From the sequence record PZ154896.1: a DNA stretch of 64,000 bases; one strand, written 5' to 3'. The position numbers and the translations under genes were made by a program. The DNA is from a phage. Positions 1,579 through 26,786 of the stretch are shown one piece after another; position 1 is the stretch's first letter; each line of letters starts with the position of its first letter. The notes below the pieces were generated by a model. It made no database searches. It was not told the DNA's origin and saw only the letters and a list, made by a program, of their open reading frames with translations.

Positions 1579-3267
1579 TTATGAAACAGTCATTACAGTA
1601 AATCGTCCAACTTTGCTCATTTGAAGATGTTGTCCATAAGCTTGTGGGTCATGGTCTCTGTGACTAATTATAAACACGTTTGCATCGGTTAGAGAGTTAA
1701 GAATTGTTGAAATAGCTTTAATACCTTCAGAATCAGTCGCGGAATCCATGACTTCGTCCATAATTAATGTATTGATTCTAACACCAGAGACCTTTTCAGC
1801 AATATCTCGCCATGTAAACAACAATGCGATATCGATACGCGCTTTTTCGCCTTGACTAAATGAAGCATAACTGAACTCTTCACGGCCACGTGATTTTATA
1901 GATTCATTGAATTCTTCATCAATAGAAAACACGTAATCAGCTTCCATGATTTTAAGATAATGGTTAATCTGCTTGTTGAACAGAGGCACATATTTTTTAA
2001 TGATAGCACCTTTAATACCGGAATCTTTTAACATATCTGTGATAATACCACGATGGTATTTTTCAAGAACGATATCTGATTTTGTTTTAATGATTTTATC
2101 AAGTTCTTTTTGAAGCAAAGCTATCTCATCAGCGTGGTCGATAAATTCCGCCGAGGCTTGTTCTATTGCAGCTTTAACTTTCTTAGCTTTATCAATAGTG
2201 GCAATCATTGCTTGTTTCTTGGTACGAATATCAGATGCAAGGTCCTGTTTAGTCTTAACATTAGCTCTATATTCGTCCACTAGGACACTCAGATTATCTC
2301 TGTGGCATGTAAGTTGCTCGAATGAGTGATTACATTCATGAAGCTTATCGGTAATCTTAGTGACAATAGGATCACCCTGGTGCAACTGTGATGCACAAGT
2401 AGGACATGTACCACCATCATGATACATCTTAATAACTTTGTTATACGAGTCAATTTTAGATTTAATCAAGAATGCTTCTTGTCCTATCTTGTTGAATGCC
2501 TCAGTAGGGTCTTCGTCAAGAACGATATTAAGTAGACGCTCATTAGCTTCTTCGATTTCTGCTTTTAATGAACGAGCTTCTTTGGCTAGGTCGTCATACA
2601 TGTTCTGTAGACGCGCTACGTTATCACCAGATAATTTCTTTTGACGTTCGATATTCTCGTTATAAATCTTAATTTGTTGGATAATACCATCTTTCTTGGC
2701 ATCGAGAACTTGACCCTGGGAATTAAGTTCTCGAACTTGAGACTTATTGATTTTATCCATTTCGGCGAGTGTGCCGACTTCTAAAAGGTCTTCGACAAGT
2801 TTTCTACGAGCAGGGGTGCTAAGAGCCATGAAAGGGGTATACCCTGCCGTCCCAAGCACAACGATTTGTTTAAAAGACGCGTATGACATTCCGATGCTAC
2901 GTTCAAATTCTTCTTGGAAGTCACGACTGCTGGCAGATTCATCAAGACGAACACCGTCAACGGAGATTTCGAAAATATTGGGCTTTTGGCCACGTTTAAT
3001 GAAGTATTTTTTACCATCGAATTCCATCCAAAGCTCAACTAAGAGCTCTTTCTTGTTCGTGCTATTAATGATTTGCCCTTTCTTAACATCACGAAATGGT
3101 TTACCGAAAAGTCCGAAAGTAATGGCTTCTAACATCGTAGATTTACCACCACCATTTTTACCTGTGATTAAGGTCTTTTGGACTTTATCTAATTGGATAT
3201 CGATAAAATTTTGCCCAACAGACATTATATTTTTATAACGAACACGATTTAATTTAAATGATTTCAT
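1579..3267 (-). CDS. 46: recombination endonuclease ATPase subunit, SbcC/Rad50-like (gp46)
   Basis: 562 aa; N-terminal Walker A GKNGGGKST, long coiled-coil with CPTC hook, C-terminal LIMDEV Walker B. Confidence 0.9.
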   Translation of the reverse strand: MKSFKLNRVRYKNIMSVGQNFIDIQLDKVQKTLITGKNGGGKSTMLEAITFGLFGKPFRDVKKGQIINSTNKKELLVELWMEFDGKKYFIKRGQKPNIFEISVDGVRLDESASSRDFQEEFERSIGMSYASFKQIVVLGTAGYTPFMALSTPARRKLVEDLLEVGTLAEMDKINKSQVRELNSQGQVLDAKKDGIIQQIKIYNENIERQKKLSGDNVARLQNMYDDLAKEARSLKAEIEEANERLLNIVLDEDPTEAFNKIGQEAFLIKSKIDSYNKVIKMYHDGGTCPTCASQLHQGDPIVTKITDKLHECNHSFEQLTCHRDNLSVLVDEYRANVKTKQDLASDIRTKKQAMIATIDKAKKVKAAIEQASAEFIDHADEIALLQKELDKIIKTKSDIVLEKYHRGIITDMLKDSGIKGAIIKKYVPLFNKQINHYLKIMEADYVFSIDEEFNESIKSRGREEFSYASFSQGEKARIDIALLFTWRDIAEKVSGVRINTLIMDEVMDSATDSEGIKAISTILNSLTDANVFIISHRDHDPQAYGQHLQMSKVGRFTVMTVS

Positions 3268-23295: not shown

Positions 23296-23508
23296 TTAAT
23301 TTTGGCCAGTATTTATTTTTCGCCTTTGGACGGCCTTAACATCTGTGAGGTATTTTTCCAGCTTGCGCTTGCGTGTATAATCAGCTTTAGAACCAGTTTG
23401 ACGGATATCCTCGTTTAAATGAGAAATAGAATGTCCTAATTCTCTTCGGATTTCATCCAATTGGGTTACAGTAAGATTACGAAGTTGTCTTTCGTTTAAT
23501 TGCTGCAT
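23296..23508 (-). CDS. hypothetical protein (rI.1 position)
   Basis: 70-aa ORF. Confidence 0.45.
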
Positions 23509-23533
23509 ATATACCTCTTGGTTAGATATTAGT

Positions 23534-23541
23534 ATTTATAA
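23534..23541 (-). promoter_or_regulatory. late promoter (TATAAATA)
   Basis: exact octamer on minus strand inside tk 3' end, upstream of rI.1/rI. Confidence 0.45.
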
Positions 23542-24117
23542 CAACCCTGTCAAATCGTTCCAATGCTTCCGGCATAATGACACATATCTATCGGTGTCAC
23601 CAATTTCAATTTGACTGCCATCTGTAATTGGAAGTCCGTCTTCCGTGACTCTAGCTACCATTGTGGCTTTTTTACCACAATGACAGACACCTTTAAGTTC
23701 AACAAGCTTATCGGCAATAGCCATTAATGCTTGAGAACCTTCAAATAGATTACCTTTAAAATCTGTTCGTAGTCCATATGCCATTACCGGCACATTGTAT
23801 ACGTCAACAATACGACTAAGTTGATACACCTTTTCAGTAGTTAAGAACTGAGCTTCGTCAACAAATACACAATGAATATCCTTTTGTGCTGCAGCCCATT
23901 TATAGAATTCAAAGATATCCATGTCTTTTGTAATTATATTGGCGTCCTGACGAATACCAATACGAGAGACTATTTCACCTTTTGAATCGCGAGTATCAAT
24001 AGCCGGTTTAAGAACTAATACACCCATGCCACGTTCTTTATAGTTATGGGCGGCAGTCAAAAGAGAAGCAGATTTTCCAGCATTCATTGCTGCATAAGTA
24101 AAAATTAAACTCGCCAT
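23536..24117 (-). CDS. tk: thymidine kinase
   Basis: 193 aa; P-loop AAMNAGKS; C-terminal zinc-binding Cys pairs; size identical to T4 Tk. Confidence 0.9.
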   Translation of the reverse strand: MASLIFTYAAMNAGKSASLLTAAHNYKERGMGVLVLKPAIDTRDSKGEIVSRIGIRQDANIITKDMDIFEFYKWAAAQKDIHCVFVDEAQFLTTEKVYQLSRIVDVYNVPVMAYGLRTDFKGNLFEGSQALMAIADKLVELKGVCHCGKKATMVARVTEDGLPITDGSQIEIGDTDRYVSLCRKHWNDLTGLL

Positions 24118-24118
24118 C

Positions 24119-24307
24119 TTAGTCCTTAGTTAAATTTTCTAAATATGTTTCTAAATCATTTTCAGCTTTATCGATAGATTTTACTAATTCGTAGTATGTT
24201 TCAGCATCTCCATAATCCGAAGCCAATTCAAAAGATAAATCTCGTTCTAAACTAATAATTTCGCTGATTAAAAATCGTATTTCATTCTTTTGTTCGCGAG
24301 TAATCAT
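24119..24307 (-). CDS. hypothetical small acidic protein (tk.x)
   Basis: 62-aa ORF. Confidence 0.4.
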   Translation of the reverse strand: MITREQKNEIRFLISEIISLERDLSFELASDYGDAETYYELVKSIDKAENDLETYLENLTKD

Positions 24308-24510
24308 AAGGAATTTATATAATCAATAAGTTCTTGTTCTTTATCGTCGAAATCTTTACACAGTTCTTCGTATTCGTCGGTATTAAAAGGACCGCATTCA
24401 TCGCAAACTTTTTCCAATTCACTATTTTTATCCATAACTTCGTGAATAAGAGAAAACAGTCTGTCTTTTTGTTCTTTACTTAAACTCATAACCATGTCAC
24501 CTTTAAGCAA
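24304..24510 (-). CDS. hypothetical small acidic protein (tk.x)
   Basis: 68-aa ORF. Confidence 0.4.
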   Translation of the reverse strand: MLKGDMVMSLSKEQKDRLFSLIHEVMDKNSELEKVCDECGPFNTDEYEELCKDFDDKEQELIDYINSL

Positions 24511-24698
24511 TATTCTTCTACATGTTGTTTACGGCCTTTCTTATCGATAAAAGTATATTCAACGAATGTTCCGATGTAGTCTTTATCTACATCATGTGGA
24601 CTATTAATTGGGCATTTGGTACGACAAATGCGTTCCCATTGACGAATAATTACTGCCTTATTCTTTGGGTCATATGGATGTGGATAATGTATATTCAT
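24486..24698 (-). CDS. hypothetical small protein (tk.x)
   Basis: ORF trimmed to MNIHYPHP. Confidence 0.35.
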   Translation of the reverse strand: MNIHYPHPYDPKNKAVIIRQWERICRTKCPINSPHDVDKDYIGTFVEYTFIDKKGRKQHVEEYCLKVTWL

Positions 24699-25192
24699 AA
24701 TAATGGTTCCCAATCAACAATCACAATTTCTAGTTTAGTGGAATACGTATCTAAAATCTCTTCGATGATATCCCAGTTTCCGCCACCGATACCTGCACCA
24801 ATTCTTGGCATATAAATTACAGGCTTTGTTATCTTATTCTTTCCGAATTCATTTAATTCTATTATACAATTCATTAAAGCATAGTACTCAAAATTAGGTC
24901 CCGGCTCAAACTGCGTATAAAGATTAAAGCAATAAGCTTTATGGGTCTTAAAATATTTTTCATAAACCGAATAAGTCCCGAGTTTAGACTCGTCTCCGAA
25001 TTCGGTTTGAAGTTTATCGGCTTCTAAAATTTTTGGATAAGCCTTTGCTAATTGTCCTGCCACACCGGCGCCCATTGTATGAAAACAATTACACCCGTGA
25101 GCAATATTATTACCTTTAGAAAACAGGGCGACAATATCGCCCTTGATATAGTTTTTAATCACTTGCTGCAAGTCCTCTAGTATAAGAGTCAA
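24695..25192 (-). CDS. macro-domain (ADP-ribose binding/processing) protein
   Basis: 165 aa; glycine-rich macro-like motifs HGCNCFHTMGAGVAGQL and PRIGAGIGGG. Confidence 0.55.
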   Translation of the reverse strand: MTLILEDLQQVIKNYIKGDIVALFSKGNNIAHGCNCFHTMGAGVAGQLAKAYPKILEADKLQTEFGDESKLGTYSVYEKYFKTHKAYCFNLYTQFEPGPNFEYYALMNCIIELNEFGKNKITKPVIYMPRIGAGIGGGNWDIIEEILDTYSTKLEIVIVDWEPLL

Positions 25193-25502
25193 CTAGACGG
25201 TCCACCATAGAATTGCATGCTGCCTTATCTTTAGGTTCCGCCACCGAGCATTCTAATATTTGCCATTTTTTATAGTATCTTTTAATTAAGGTAGACGCCT
25301 TGAACCTACTAGACGCCCCATCTTTTTCTCCGTCTTTATACGCATATAACAATTTTTGTGAAAAATCTACTTTACACTCTTGACTTTTACCACAATAATC
25401 AGACGCCGTTCTGTTTGTATACTCCGTTACATCAGTATATGTAGTATTAGCAAGAGCGCTAAATGAAACCAAGCCAACTATTAAAGCCAACATTTTGGTC
25501 AT
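25155..25502 (-). CDS. small periplasmic Cys-containing protein (vs position)
   Basis: 115 aa; signal peptide ending ...SALA; four Cys. Confidence 0.45.
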   Translation of the reverse strand: MTKMLALIVGLVSFSALANTTYTDVTEYTNRTASDYCGKSQECKVDFSQKLLYAYKDGEKDGASSRFKASTLIKRYYKKWQILECSVAEPKDKAACNSMVDRLVDSYTRGLAASD

Positions 25503-26041
25503 TCTTTTATTTCCAGTAGTTTATTTGATTTAAGGTAATTAGCCTTTTCTAGGACTTCAGAAGCATATTTACTTCCAGCACTTGTCTTCCATCCCGCATT
25601 ATATGAGGATATAGCTTTTCTTATATCCCCGTTATGTATATTTAACCAATAAGAAAATTCGATATAAGCCCATCTGGCTGAATTAGACCGCTTAGATAGC
25701 ATTTTCTTAATTTGGGCATCAGTCATATTATAACCAAGCTGGTTAATTCTTGCCCTCATTGTTGGTAGATAATTTTGGAACATTCCATACGCATGGTGAC
25801 CTTTCTTATTTTTAAGATTAATACCGGCAGATGATTCCTGCCATAGTATTGCGGCCATTATGTATCCAAGTCCTTTCTTATGCATATTTTCATGCGTTTT
25901 AAATTTTCCATCCTTAGAAAACTGTTCCCCAAACTGATAAGCATAATTCAAGTTATCGAGTTGGACATTACTAAAAGTATGCTCGGAGCTATGTGCTGAT
26001 AACGAAAGAGCAAATAGACCAGCGAGTAGTGCTTTTCTCAT
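25499..26041 (-). CDS. periplasmic lytic-transglycosylase-like protein (vs.1-like)
   Basis: 180 aa; signal peptide; ES...GMFQ and YNAG motifs typical of the SLT/lysozyme-like fold. Confidence 0.55.
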   Translation of the reverse strand: MRKALLAGLFALSLSAHSSEHTFSNVQLDNLNYAYQFGEQFSKDGKFKTHENMHKKGLGYIMAAILWQESSAGINLKNKKGHHAYGMFQNYLPTMRARINQLGYNMTDAQIKKMLSKRSNSARWAYIEFSYWLNIHNGDIRKAISSYNAGWKTSAGSKYASEVLEKANYLKSNKLLEIKE

Positions 26042-26049
26042 GTTTACCT

Positions 26050-26508
26050 CTAGATTTTAATCACTGCTTTAGAAGCTTTTCCTGGTAGTCGTTTACTGTT
26101 AATAATAGCCATTCTGCATTGAAGAGTCTTCATTTTGAATGCTGGATTTTCGCGACAAACTGTAAGTCCTAACCAAAGATTTCCATCAGTTATTTCTAAA
26201 CGGCCTGGGCGATATTCGACACCTTCGACAAAATCTTCATCAACATCCGGACGTGCCGGCATTGATAAAAATTCTGCAACTTCTTTAACATGATTTTTTA
26301 CTTTACGAAATAATTCAAAAACGTAGTTCTCATCTATTTCTCTCTGGATGGCACGATCTAAGAGATGTTGAGAATACTTGATATGAAAGCCTGGTAGCCC
26401 AAGAGACTTTGCAGCATCTTTTACACCGGCATTTATTTTGCGGAACTCCGTTTCAAAGATTCGACGGAGTTTATTACGGCGGATAAAAACGTCAGAATTG
26501 ATAGTCAT
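26050..26508 (-). CDS. regB: endoribonuclease RegB
   Basis: 152 aa; near-colinear by recall with T4 RegB (MTIN...FIRRNKLRR...EYRPGRLEITDGNLWLG...). Confidence 0.9.
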   Translation of the reverse strand: MTINSDVFIRRNKLRRIFETEFRKINAGVKDAAKSLGLPGFHIKYSQHLLDRAIQREIDENYVFELFRKVKNHVKEVAEFLSMPARPDVDEDFVEGVEYRPGRLEITDGNLWLGLTVCRENPAFKMKTLQCRMAIINSKRLPGKASKAVIKI

Positions 26509-26520
26509 TTTTGATTTCTC

Positions 26521-26566
26521 CTCTAGTTGACAGGTCTATAGTAACACATCTAGAGGAGAAGTAAAC
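26521..26566 (-). promoter_or_regulatory. PeSL-like early promoter cassette upstream of regB
   Basis: rc: GTTGTTTAC, CTCTAG/CTAGAG inverted repeat around TACTATAG. Confidence 0.55.
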
Positions 26567-26570
26567 AACT

Positions 26571-26786
26571 TTATTGATAAAATGGAGTTAAAGCCCAAGA
26601 TTCTTTAGATACCATATCGGCGAAATGCCTCATCTCTTCGATTTGGCGACGACGTTGGTCAGCATAGTCTTCTTCGCCTTCTTCCTTACAATCTTCAAGG
26701 TCTTCTTCAAGATACTTTAAGTATTCACTACAAATTTTGTTGACCTTTTCTTGAAAGTCCAATAACCCAGTAATAGTAGAAGCCAT
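26571..26786 (-). CDS. hypothetical acidic protein (vs.3 position)
   Basis: 71-aa ORF. Confidence 0.45.
   Translation of the reverse strand: MASTITGLLDFQEKVNKICSEYLKYLEEDLEDCKEEGEEDYADQRRRQIEEMRHFADMVSKESWALTPFYQ

What the first reader, a model, noticed from the sequence alone, without database searches (positions are those of the whole stretch)
24695..25192. Macro-domain protein downstream of tk
The 165-aa ORF has the glycine-rich signatures of macro domains (HGCNCFHTMGAGVAGQL and PRIGAGIGGG). Macro domains bind or hydrolyse ADP-ribose conjugates; in a phage this could reverse host ADP-ribosylation-based defence such as DarT-type DNA ADP-ribosylation, or process products of the phage's own ADP-ribosyltransferases.
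Basis: partly seen in the sequence, partly recalled or inferred. Interest (0 to 1): 0.55.

Follow-up and report, generated by a model that had tools for sequence, protein, structure and literature searches.

The report
Phage tk.4/AdfM macrodomain gene

Summary
The ORF is real. It is the tk.4 orthologue of a Mosigvirus (RB69-like T-even phage): 98.8% nucleotide identity to records annotated "macro domain protein"/"phosphatase", 84-85% protein identity to T4 Tk.4, and T4-like gene order. The likely start is the GTG at 25162 (155 aa), not the TTG at 25192. On the coding strand the gene lies upstream of tk, not downstream.

Three points add to that:
- The DarG/TARG1 catalytic lysine is an invariant glutamine here (67/67 homologues). 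S. coelicolor SCO6735 has the same glutamine and is shown to cleave thymidine-linked ADP-ribose.
- The closest biochemically characterised relative is Vibrio phage Gary Adpp (35% identity), an ADP-ribose-1''-phosphate phosphatase. That activity is a live rival or a second function.
- PhiKZ "AdfM" (gp104) is a different, lysine-type DarG-like subfamily.

Novelty: already known. Interest: low to moderate.

The parts
24695..25162 (-). tk.4 / adfM coding sequence, 155 aa, GTG start, TGA stop; single macrodomain
   Evidence: ORF. Annotated 468-nt CDS in 98.8%-identical Mosigvirus records and in T4. Start aligned with the T4 ATG. Pfam Macro 27.7 bits. AF2 pLDDT 94.9.
25163..25192 (-). 10-codon upstream extension of the maximal ORF (TTG start), probably not translated; it lies inside the 3' end of vs
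   Evidence: T4 has an in-frame TAG at the equivalent position directly before its ATG. tblastn matches to T4-type phages begin at residue 11 of the 165-aa ORF.
25173..25177 (-). Shine-Dalgarno-like GAGGA, 10 nt upstream of the GTG start
   Evidence: Read from the sequence. T4 has the same GAGGA 11 nt before its ATG.
25049..25099 (-). Loop 1 motif HGCNCFHTMGAGVAGQL (residues 22-38 of the 155-aa protein). It holds invariant G23, N25 and G33, and H22 conserved in 65 of 67 homologues. N25 corresponds to DarG N22, PhiKZ gp104 N23 and SCO6735 N27.
   Evidence: Column counts over 67 homologues. Alignments. N23A reduces gp104 activity. N27S nearly abolishes SCO6735 activity.
25016..25018 (-). Asp49, invariant in the family and shared with Poa1p and the NARP1-linked Adpp proteins; Tyr or Leu in DarG, BT1257 and TARG1
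24911..24925 (-). NLYTQ (residues 80-84). Q84 occupies the position of the catalytic Lys of DarG (K80) and TARG1 (K84). N80, Y82, T83 and Q84 are invariant in 67/67 homologues.
   Evidence: hhalign against Taq DarG and TARG1. MAFFT. HMM alignment to TARG1 and BT1257. Column counts. SCO6735 Gln85 precedent.
24773..24808 (-). Loop 2 motif PRIGAGIGGGNW (residues 119-130), the diphosphate-binding glycine loop. The TARG1 D125 position is Gly here.
25155..25502 (-). vs (valyl-tRNA synthetase modifier), the gene immediately upstream; its TAA stop overlaps the tk.4 GTG (GTGATTAA)
   Evidence: ORF. Annotation of the syntenic gene in NC_041863 and T4. Sequence.
24486..24698 (-). tk.3 (70 aa from the ATG at 24698), the gene immediately downstream; its ATG overlaps the tk.4 TGA (ATGA)
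   Evidence: ORF. A 213-nt CDS follows tk.4 with a 4-nt overlap in relatives.
23536..24117 (-). tk (thymidine kinase), four genes downstream in the direction of transcription
   Evidence: ORF of 193 aa with a P-loop. Same size and position as the annotated tdk in relatives.

Best explanation
The ORF is the tk.4 (adfM) gene of a Mosigvirus, a T-even-type E. coli phage. It encodes a 155-aa stand-alone macrodomain of the TARG1/ALC1-like class, of the 'glutamine type': invariant Asn25 and Gln84, as in S. coelicolor SCO6735 and B. thetaiotaomicron BT1257.

Most likely mechanism. The protein binds the ADP-ribose moiety through its two glycine-rich loops. It then hydrolyses the bond at ribose C1'' that links ADP-ribose to N3 of thymidine in single-stranded phage DNA, the lesion made by the DarT2 toxin of DarTG2 defence systems. 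This restores replicable DNA. Gln84, held in place by Asn25, would position the distal ribose, and a water molecule would do the chemistry, as proposed for SCO6735. This differs from the lysine-dependent mechanism of DarG and TARG1.

Shown here: gene identity, orthology and synteny, fold, class, and active-site composition.
Taken from the literature: T4 lacking tk.4 becomes DarTG2-sensitive, and a Gln-type macrodomain (SCO6735) cleaves thymidine-linked ADP-ribose.
Inferred: this protein itself de-ADP-ribosylates DNA, and it uses the Gln/water mechanism.
For: Orthology:
- 98.8% nucleotide identity to Mosigvirus records annotated 'macro domain protein' or 'phosphatase'.
- 84% (tblastn) to 85% (alignment) protein identity to T4 Tk.4.
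- Same gene order, regB - vs.1 - vs - tk.4 - tk.3 - tk.2 - tk.1 - tk.

Fold and class:
- Pfam Macro is above threshold.
- AF2 gives pLDDT 94.9 and pTM 0.90.
- Foldseek top hits are TARG1, Poa1p, BT1257 and DarG.

Function of the orthologue:
- T4 tk.4 was the single significant HIDEN-SEQ hit under DarTG2, and a clean knockout was sensitised.
- All tested Tevenvirinae resist DarTG2, and the earlier-known factors AdfA and AdfN do not explain this.

Active site:
- N25 and Q84 are invariant in 67/67 homologues.
- Q84 aligns with DarG K80 and TARG1 K84.
- SCO6735 has Gln85 at that position, cleaves dT-ADPr on ssDNA and rescues E. coli from DarT. Q85A abolishes and N27S nearly abolishes its activity. 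It is also active on synthetic TCT-ADPr-C.
- The family profile matches SCO6735 (5E3B) at E 1.5e-14.

Expression: the T2 Tk.4 protein was detected in an infected-cell proteome.
Against: - No biochemistry exists for any Tk.4 protein. The T4 evidence is genetic, from a preprint, and the passages I read describe no complementation or catalytic mutant.
- The closest biochemically characterised relative is not a DNA hydrolase. It is Vibrio phage Gary Adpp (35% identity, E 1e-23 over the full length), which converts ADP-ribose-1''-phosphate to ADP-ribose. DarG is only 20-21% identical and PhiKZ AdfM 18%.
- The protein scores far below the DarG equivalog cut-off: 29.3 against 250 bits.
- Among the 80 best bacterial homologue loci, none has a DarT2 gene within 4 kb and there is no conserved neighbour. 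The family is therefore not generally a DarT partner.
- The protein is mildly acidic (pI 5.6). It also lacks the loop-1 lysine that helps SCO6735 bind DNA, although PhiKZ gp104, which is active on DNA, lacks it too.
- The residue-level correspondence rests on sequence and profile alignments. I could not superpose coordinates.
Confidence: 0.68

Rival explanations
1. The protein is primarily an ADP-ribose-1''-phosphate phosphatase of the Poa1p/Adpp type. It would dephosphorylate ADPR-1''P, the product of RES-domain NADases such as the aRES defence, or of Tpt1/KptA-type RNA 2'-phosphotransferases. It would act on a small molecule rather than on DNA. This may be its only activity, or a second activity alongside DNA de-ADP-ribosylation.
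For: - Gary Adpp, a purified ADPR-1P phosphatase, is 35% identical over the full length at E 1e-23.
- Adpp shares H22, N25, D49, the GD..KLG motif, x-Q84 and the IGxGxxGGDW loop with the window protein.
- Some NARP1-linked macro proteins, such as that of Acinetobacter phage Liucustia, even carry the same YTQ motif and are 38% identical. That is as close as many members of the Tk.4 homologue set.
- The long-standing 'phosphatase' (A1pp) annotation comes from the same similarity.
Against: - The gene is not in a NARP1 operon. Its neighbours are vs, vs.1, tk.3 and tk.2, small T4-type genes. Without Adps and Namat, turning ADPR-1P into ADPR would not rebuild NAD+.
- The only phenotype reported for the orthologue is DarTG2 sensitivity, which a small-molecule phosphatase does not obviously explain.
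- Most NARP1-linked proteins in the part of the table I read have YGQ where all 67 Tk.4-family members have YTQ.
Confidence: 0.17
2. The protein reverses or trims ADP-ribosylation or RNAylation written by the phage's own ADP-ribosyltransferases (Alt, ModA, ModB) on host proteins.
For: T-even phages encode Alt, ModA and ModB, so phage-made ADP-ribose conjugates exist in infected cells. TARG1-class enzymes, including SCO6735, can also de-modify proteins.
Against: - Alt and ModA modify arginine residues. From my own knowledge, arginine-linked ADP-ribose is removed by DraG/ARH-type enzymes, not by TARG1-class macrodomains, which act on Glu/Asp esters and nucleic acids.
- tk.4 was dispensable in T4 except under DarTG2.
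- No genomic linkage to alt or mod was seen near the gene.
Confidence: 0.04
3. The protein is a non-catalytic ADP-ribose binder. It would shield ADP-ribosylated DNA, sequester a signalling nucleotide, or inhibit DarT2 directly.
For: It lacks the DarG/TARG1 catalytic lysine. Some macrodomains are readers only.
Against: - Asn25 and Gln84 are invariant in 67/67 homologues, and D49 and T83 are also invariant. This argues for a conserved active site.
- The same Asn/Gln pair is required for catalysis in SCO6735.
- A close relative, Adpp, is an active enzyme.
Confidence: 0.06

Closest known systems
Phage T4 Tk.4 = AdfM (anti-DarT factor macrodomain), preprint 10.1101/2025.11.20.689424
   Same: Orthologue: 84-85% identical over all 155 residues, the same position between vs and tk.3, the same start context, and all invariant residues shared.
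   Different: Different genus (Mosigvirus against Tequatrovirus), a GTG instead of an ATG start, and minor substitutions such as GIGGGNW against GIGKGNW. The DarTG2 phenotype has been tested only in T4.
Streptomyces coelicolor SCO6735 (PDB 5E3B), a Gln-type ALC1/TARG1-like macrodomain that cleaves thymidine-linked ADP-ribose
   Same: Same macrodomain class and the same Asn/Gln pair at the catalytic-lysine position. It is a stand-alone protein not encoded next to DarT, and it rescues cells from DarT.
   Different: Only distant sequence similarity (phmmer E 7e-5, profile E 1.5e-14). SCO6735 has a longer, lysine-bearing mobile loop and K34 for DNA binding, which Tk.4 lacks. It is a bacterial DNA-damage-inducible gene, not a phage gene.
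Vibrio phage Gary Adpp (NARP1-AP ADP-ribose-1''-phosphate phosphatase), preprint 10.64898/2026.01.28.702374
   Same: The closest biochemically characterised homologue: 35% identity at E 1e-23, with the same length and motifs (HxCNCF, EAD, GD..KLG, NxYxQ, IGxGxxGGDW).
   Different: Adpp sits between Adps and Namat in a NARP1 operon and has YGQ rather than YTQ. Its shown substrate is a small molecule, and it counters aRES, not DarTG2.
DarG antitoxin macrodomain (T. aquaticus 5M31/5M3E, M. tuberculosis 5M3I) and PhiKZ gp104 'AdfM'
   Different: DarG and gp104 have the FPTK catalytic lysine, whereas Tk.4 has YTQ. Identity is only 18-21%. Tk.4 has no DarT-binding C-terminal domain and scores 29 bits against a 250-bit DarG cut-off, while gp104 scores 133 bits on the PADLOC DarG model against 31 for Tk.4. 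The two proteins called 'AdfM' therefore belong to different subfamilies.
Yeast Poa1p (6LFQ) and Bacteroides BT1257 (2FG1/2AFC)
   Different: Poa1p has Ser-Ser where Tk.4 has Thr-Gln, and it works in tRNA-splicing by-product clearance. BT1257 has no known function.

Membership tests
Macro domain superfamily (Pfam PF01661) | Profile score above Pfam's gathering threshold | tested here: met
   27.7 bits against a cut-off of 22, E 2.7e-6, covering profile positions 2-117 of 118.
Macro domain superfamily (Pfam PF01661) | Three-layer alpha/beta/alpha macro fold | tested here: met
Macro domain superfamily (Pfam PF01661) | Conserved Asn plus two glycine-rich ADP-ribose-binding loops | tested here: met
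   N25, G31-x-G33 and I121-G122-x-G124-x-x-G127-G128 are conserved or invariant in 67 homologues.
Macro domain superfamily (Pfam PF01661) | Binds ADP-ribose | not testable with these tools
   Needs ITC, thermal shift or a co-crystal.
T4 Tk.4 / AdfM orthologous group | High full-length identity to T4 Tk.4 | tested here: met
   83.9% by tblastn over residues 11-165 of the long ORF; 85% over 155 residues in the alignment.
T4 Tk.4 / AdfM orthologous group | Conserved position between vs and tk.3 in the regB-vs-tk block | tested here: met
   ORF order in the window matches NC_041863 and T4.
T4 Tk.4 / AdfM orthologous group | Required for growth on DarTG2-carrying hosts | not testable with these tools
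   Reported only for T4. Needs a knockout of this phage.
DarG antitoxin (NCBIfam NF048014; PADLOC DarG) | Score above the equivalog cut-off | tested here: not met
   29.3 bits against a cut-off of 250. PADLOC DarG gives 31 bits, against 133 for PhiKZ gp104.
DarG antitoxin (NCBIfam NF048014; PADLOC DarG) | Catalytic lysine in the (F)PTK motif (Taq DarG K80) | tested here: not met
   The aligned residue is Gln84, invariant in 67/67.
DarG antitoxin (NCBIfam NF048014; PADLOC DarG) | C-terminal DarT-binding domain and an adjacent darT gene | tested here: not met
   The protein is 155 aa with a single domain. Its neighbours are vs and tk.3. No DarT2 was found within 4 kb of 80 bacterial homologues.
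Gln-type ALC1/TARG1-like macrodomains (SCO6735-like dT-ADPr hydrolases) | Gln at the TARG1 K84 / DarG K80 position, supported by the conserved loop-1 Asn | tested here: met
   Q84 and N25 are invariant. The equivalence to K80/K84 comes from hhalign, MAFFT and HMM alignments. The SCO6735 Q85/N27 roles come from PMC9411070.
Gln-type ALC1/TARG1-like macrodomains (SCO6735-like dT-ADPr hydrolases) | Significant similarity to SCO6735 (5E3B) | tested here: met
   phmmer E 7.3e-5, family profile E 1.5e-14, Foldseek E 1.1e-6 with TM 0.71-0.74. The relationship is distant, at class level only.
Gln-type ALC1/TARG1-like macrodomains (SCO6735-like dT-ADPr hydrolases) | Hydrolyses thymidine-linked ADP-ribose on ssDNA | not testable with these tools
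   Needs a gel-shift or AMP-Glo assay on a DarT2-modified oligonucleotide.
Poa1p/Adpp-type ADP-ribose-1''-phosphate phosphatases | Full-length similarity to a characterised member | tested here: met
Poa1p/Adpp-type ADP-ribose-1''-phosphate phosphatases | Encoded within two genes of the NARP1 genes Adps and Namat (the preprint's definition of Adpp) | tested here: not met
   The two genes on each side are vs.1, vs, tk.3 and tk.2.
Poa1p/Adpp-type ADP-ribose-1''-phosphate phosphatases | Converts ADPR-1''P to ADPR | not testable with these tools
   Needs an LC-MS assay with purified ADPR-1P.

The most novel reading that the evidence does not exclude
The Tk.4-type glutamine macrodomain may be a dual-purpose counter-defence enzyme. 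A single active site that attacks whatever is attached to ribose C1'' would both strip DarT2-installed ADP-ribose from thymidine in phage DNA and dephosphorylate ADP-ribose-1''-phosphate made by RES-type NADases. The proteins published as AdfM (T4) and Adpp (Vibrio phage Gary) would then be one enzyme family serving two different anti-defence roles, by a lysine-independent mechanism distinct from that of DarG.
Probability: 0.2. Interest if true: 0.55.

Novelty: already known. Interest (0 to 1): 0.27.

Why it matters
The gene adds nothing new as a discovery. tk.4 has been recognised as an A1pp/macro-domain gene since 2006, and its T4 orthologue was tied to DarTG2 resistance in 2025.

Its value is as a pointer to an unresolved biochemical question. 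T-even phages resist DarTG2 with a macrodomain that lacks the DarG catalytic lysine, and whose nearest characterised relative is a small-molecule phosphatase. Settling which bond it cleaves would do three things:
- clarify how widely the glutamine-type mechanism described for SCO6735 is used;
- show whether the 2790 phage records in the collection with a homologue (about 5%) are countering DNA ADP-ribosylation, NAD+ depletion, or both;
- tidy a nomenclature in which two different subfamilies are both called AdfM.

Tried and rejected
- **The 165-aa TTG-initiated ORF as the true product.** Rejected in favour of the 155-aa GTG start. T4 has a stop codon directly upstream of the aligned ATG, and relatives are annotated at 155 aa.
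- **Tk.4 as the same kind of protein as PhiKZ AdfM (gp104).** Rejected. BLASTP aligns only 23 residues. gp104 is a true DarG-type protein with the FPTK motif: E 9e-25 to Mtb DarG and 133 bits on the PADLOC DarG model.
- **Tk.4 as an 'orphan DarG antitoxin' captured from a DarTG2 operon.** I scanned bacterial genomes and found at least 467 loci. I then searched the 80 best for DarT2 by tblastn with P. aeruginosa 505 DarT2, and clustered all neighbouring ORFs. There was no DarT hit below E=2 and no recurrent neighbour, only lineage-specific housekeeping genes. Sensitivity was limited to one DarT2 query and 4-kb flanks.
- **Net charge as a discriminator between DNA-acting and small-molecule-acting members.** Uninformative. 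pI ranges overlap, and PhiKZ gp104, which is active on DNA, is also acidic.
- **Promoter and terminator scan of 23400..26700.** Not above shuffled expectation: 8 promoters against 12.3 expected, 3 terminators against 1.7. I make no expression claim from it.
- **Residue-level 3D superposition of Q84 on DarG K80 or SCO6735 Q85.** I could not obtain it, because model coordinates are not exposed and the 5E3B alignment was never among the five printed. The equivalence rests on three independent sequence or profile alignments plus the published structural alignment.
- **The residues mutated in Adpp.** They are not given in the text held.

Full report
**Observation**

The window has an open frame at 24695..25192 on the minus strand, 165 aa from a TTG.

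Relatives annotate a shorter, 155-aa product. T4 starts at an ATG that aligns with the window's GTG at 25162, and T4 has an in-frame TAG directly before that ATG. Both phages carry GAGGA 10-11 nt upstream. tblastn matches to T4-type phages also begin at residue 11 of the long ORF.

I therefore take 24695..25162 as the gene. Its GTG overlaps the TAA of vs (GTGATTAA), and its TGA overlaps the ATG of tk.3 (ATGA).

All these genes lie on the minus strand. tk.4 is therefore transcribed before tk, so 'downstream of tk' holds only in plus-strand coordinates.

**Identity**

- The DNA is 98.8% identical to several Mosigvirus genomes, for example E. coli O157 typing phage 3. There the gene is annotated 'macro domain protein' in GenBank and 'phosphatase' in RefSeq.
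- The protein is 84-85% identical to T4 Tk.4.
- It sits in the same block: regB, vs.1, vs, tk.4, tk.3, tk.2, tk.1, tk.
- Homologues occur in 2790 of 50,697 phage records.
- The match of tk.4 orthologues to the A1pp (macro) domain was already published in 2006 (PMC1524935).

**Fold and class**

- Pfam Macro scores above threshold: 27.7 against 22 bits. PHROG 335 'phosphatase' matches at 2.6e-66.
- An AlphaFold2 model built on 67 homologues has pLDDT 94.9 and pTM 0.90.
- Foldseek against the PDB puts TARG1, Poa1p, BT1257 and DarG first.

The protein is thus a stand-alone macrodomain of the TARG1/ALC1-like class.

**What is known about function**

A November 2025 preprint (10.1101/2025.11.20.689424) screened a T4 transposon library on a DarTG2-expressing host. 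tk.4 was the single significant hit, and a clean deletion made T4 DarTG2-sensitive. The authors named the gene adfM and proposed, without biochemistry, that it removes ADP-ribose from DNA.

This filled a gap noted earlier. All tested Tevenvirinae resist DarTG2, yet neither AdfA nor AdfN accounts for it (PMC11257639).

**Active site**

Across 67 homologues down to 38% identity, the invariant residues include G23, N25, G33, A35, D49, G62, N80, Y82, T83, Q84, P119, I121, G122, G124 and W130.

Several independent alignments place NLYTQ opposite NFPTK of DarG and YLITK of TARG1:
- a MAFFT alignment;
- the HMM alignment to the TARG1 PDB chains.

Gln84 therefore replaces the catalytic Lys80/Lys84, and Gly replaces TARG1 Asp125. 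It is not, because there is a precedent.

S. coelicolor SCO6735 (PDB 5E3B) has Gln85 at exactly this position. It cleaves thymidine-linked ADP-ribose from ssDNA and rescues E. coli from DarT. Its activity is lost in Q85A and almost lost in N27S. A water-mediated, lysine-independent mechanism was proposed for it (PMC9411070; activity confirmed on synthetic substrates in PMC12879935).

The Tk.4 family profile matches 5E3B at E 1.5e-14. The Asn/Gln pair (N25/Q84) is invariant in the Tk.4 family.

**A rival activity**

A January 2026 preprint (10.64898/2026.01.28.702374) describes Adpp, a Poa1p-like macro protein encoded inside NARP1 operons. The purified protein from Vibrio phage Gary converts ADP-ribose-1''-phosphate to ADP-ribose. 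This lets NARP1 rebuild NAD+ in the face of the RES-domain defence aRES.

Its sequence, from the preprint's supplementary table, is 35% identical to the window protein over the full length at E 1e-23. It shares nearly all family motifs but has YGQ in place of YTQ.

Some NARP1-linked proteins, such as that of Acinetobacter phage Liucustia, have YTQ and are 38% identical. That is as close as many members of my homologue set.

So the nearest enzyme with demonstrated chemistry is a small-molecule phosphatase. By comparison, DarG is 20-21% identical and PhiKZ 'AdfM' (gp104) 18%.

gp104 removes DarT2 modifications in vitro (PMC13309987). It is a lysine-type DarG homologue: E 9e-25 to Mtb DarG, and 133 bits on the PADLOC DarG model against 31 for Tk.4. 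It is barely alignable with Tk.4 by BLASTP. Two different subfamilies therefore share the name AdfM.

Three points count against the phosphatase as the sole function here:
- The gene is not near any NARP1 genes.
- Dephosphorylating ADPR-1P without NARP1 would not restore NAD+.
- The only reported phenotype of the orthologue is DarTG2 sensitivity.

**Bacterial relatives**

A pattern scan of one genome per species found at least 467 loci that encode relatives. In the 80 best loci:
- no DarT2 homologue lies within 4 kb (tblastn with one DarT2 query, best E 2.2);
- no neighbour recurs beyond lineage-specific housekeeping genes.

The family is therefore a widespread stand-alone enzyme, not a DarG antitoxin that lost its toxin. 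The protein also fails the DarG equivalog threshold at 29 against 250 bits.

**Conclusion**

The feature is a real gene that is already known and annotated. The most likely mechanism is hydrolysis of DarT2-installed thymidine-ADP-ribose by a glutamine-type active site (confidence about 0.68). ADPR-1''-phosphate phosphatase activity is the main rival, or an additional activity.

I consider two other roles unlikely: reversing the phage's own arginine-directed ADP-ribosylation, and acting as a non-catalytic reader.

Decisive tests are in vitro assays on DarT2-modified oligonucleotides and on ADPR-1''P with N25A and Q84A mutants, and a knockout of this phage plated on DarTG2 and aRES hosts.

Noticed in passing
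window 25125..25143 (minus strand); T4 locus L002 about 3019..3037: A perfect 8-bp hairpin (AGGGCGAT-ATT-GTCGCCCT) followed by a T-run lies 19 nt inside the tk.4 coding sequence (codons for KGDIVALF). It is also present in T4. The terminator-like scan is not above chance (3 found against 1.7 expected), and the conservation could simply reflect the conserved peptide. A 2026 preprint reports RIL-seq contacts between the host sRNA ArcZ and the T2 tk.4 transcript.
   Followed up: partly
window 24695..24698 and 25155..25162 (minus strand): tk.4 is joined to both neighbours by overlapping stop and start codons: GTGATTAA with vs and ATGA with tk.3. T4 has ATGA at the vs/tk.4 junction. This suggests translational coupling through the vs-tk.4-tk.3 run.
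   Followed up: partly
literature: T4 Tk.4 versus PhiKZ gp104: Two groups independently named different proteins AdfM. T4 Tk.4 is a Gln-type, Poa1p/BT1257-like macrodomain. PhiKZ gp104 is a Lys-type DarG homologue. They share only about 18% identity.
   Followed up: yes
loci L003-L082 (bacterial genomes): The HGCNCF...NxYTQ...IGAGIAGGDW macrodomain family is common as a stand-alone gene in Rhodobacterales, Desulfobacter, Hymenobacter, Verrucomicrobia and others, with at least 467 loci. It has no conserved neighbour and no DarT nearby, and its cellular role is unknown.
   Followed up: partly
This looks like annotation carry-over. The 'phosphatase' product name for tk.4 is an old A1pp-derived label.
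   Followed up: no
window 25499..26041 and 26050..26508 (minus strand): Upstream of vs lie a 180-aa ORF matching the position of T4 vs.1 (annotated as SLT-domain transglycosylase in T4) and a 152-aa ORF at the position of regB. The block is collinear with T4.
   Followed up: no
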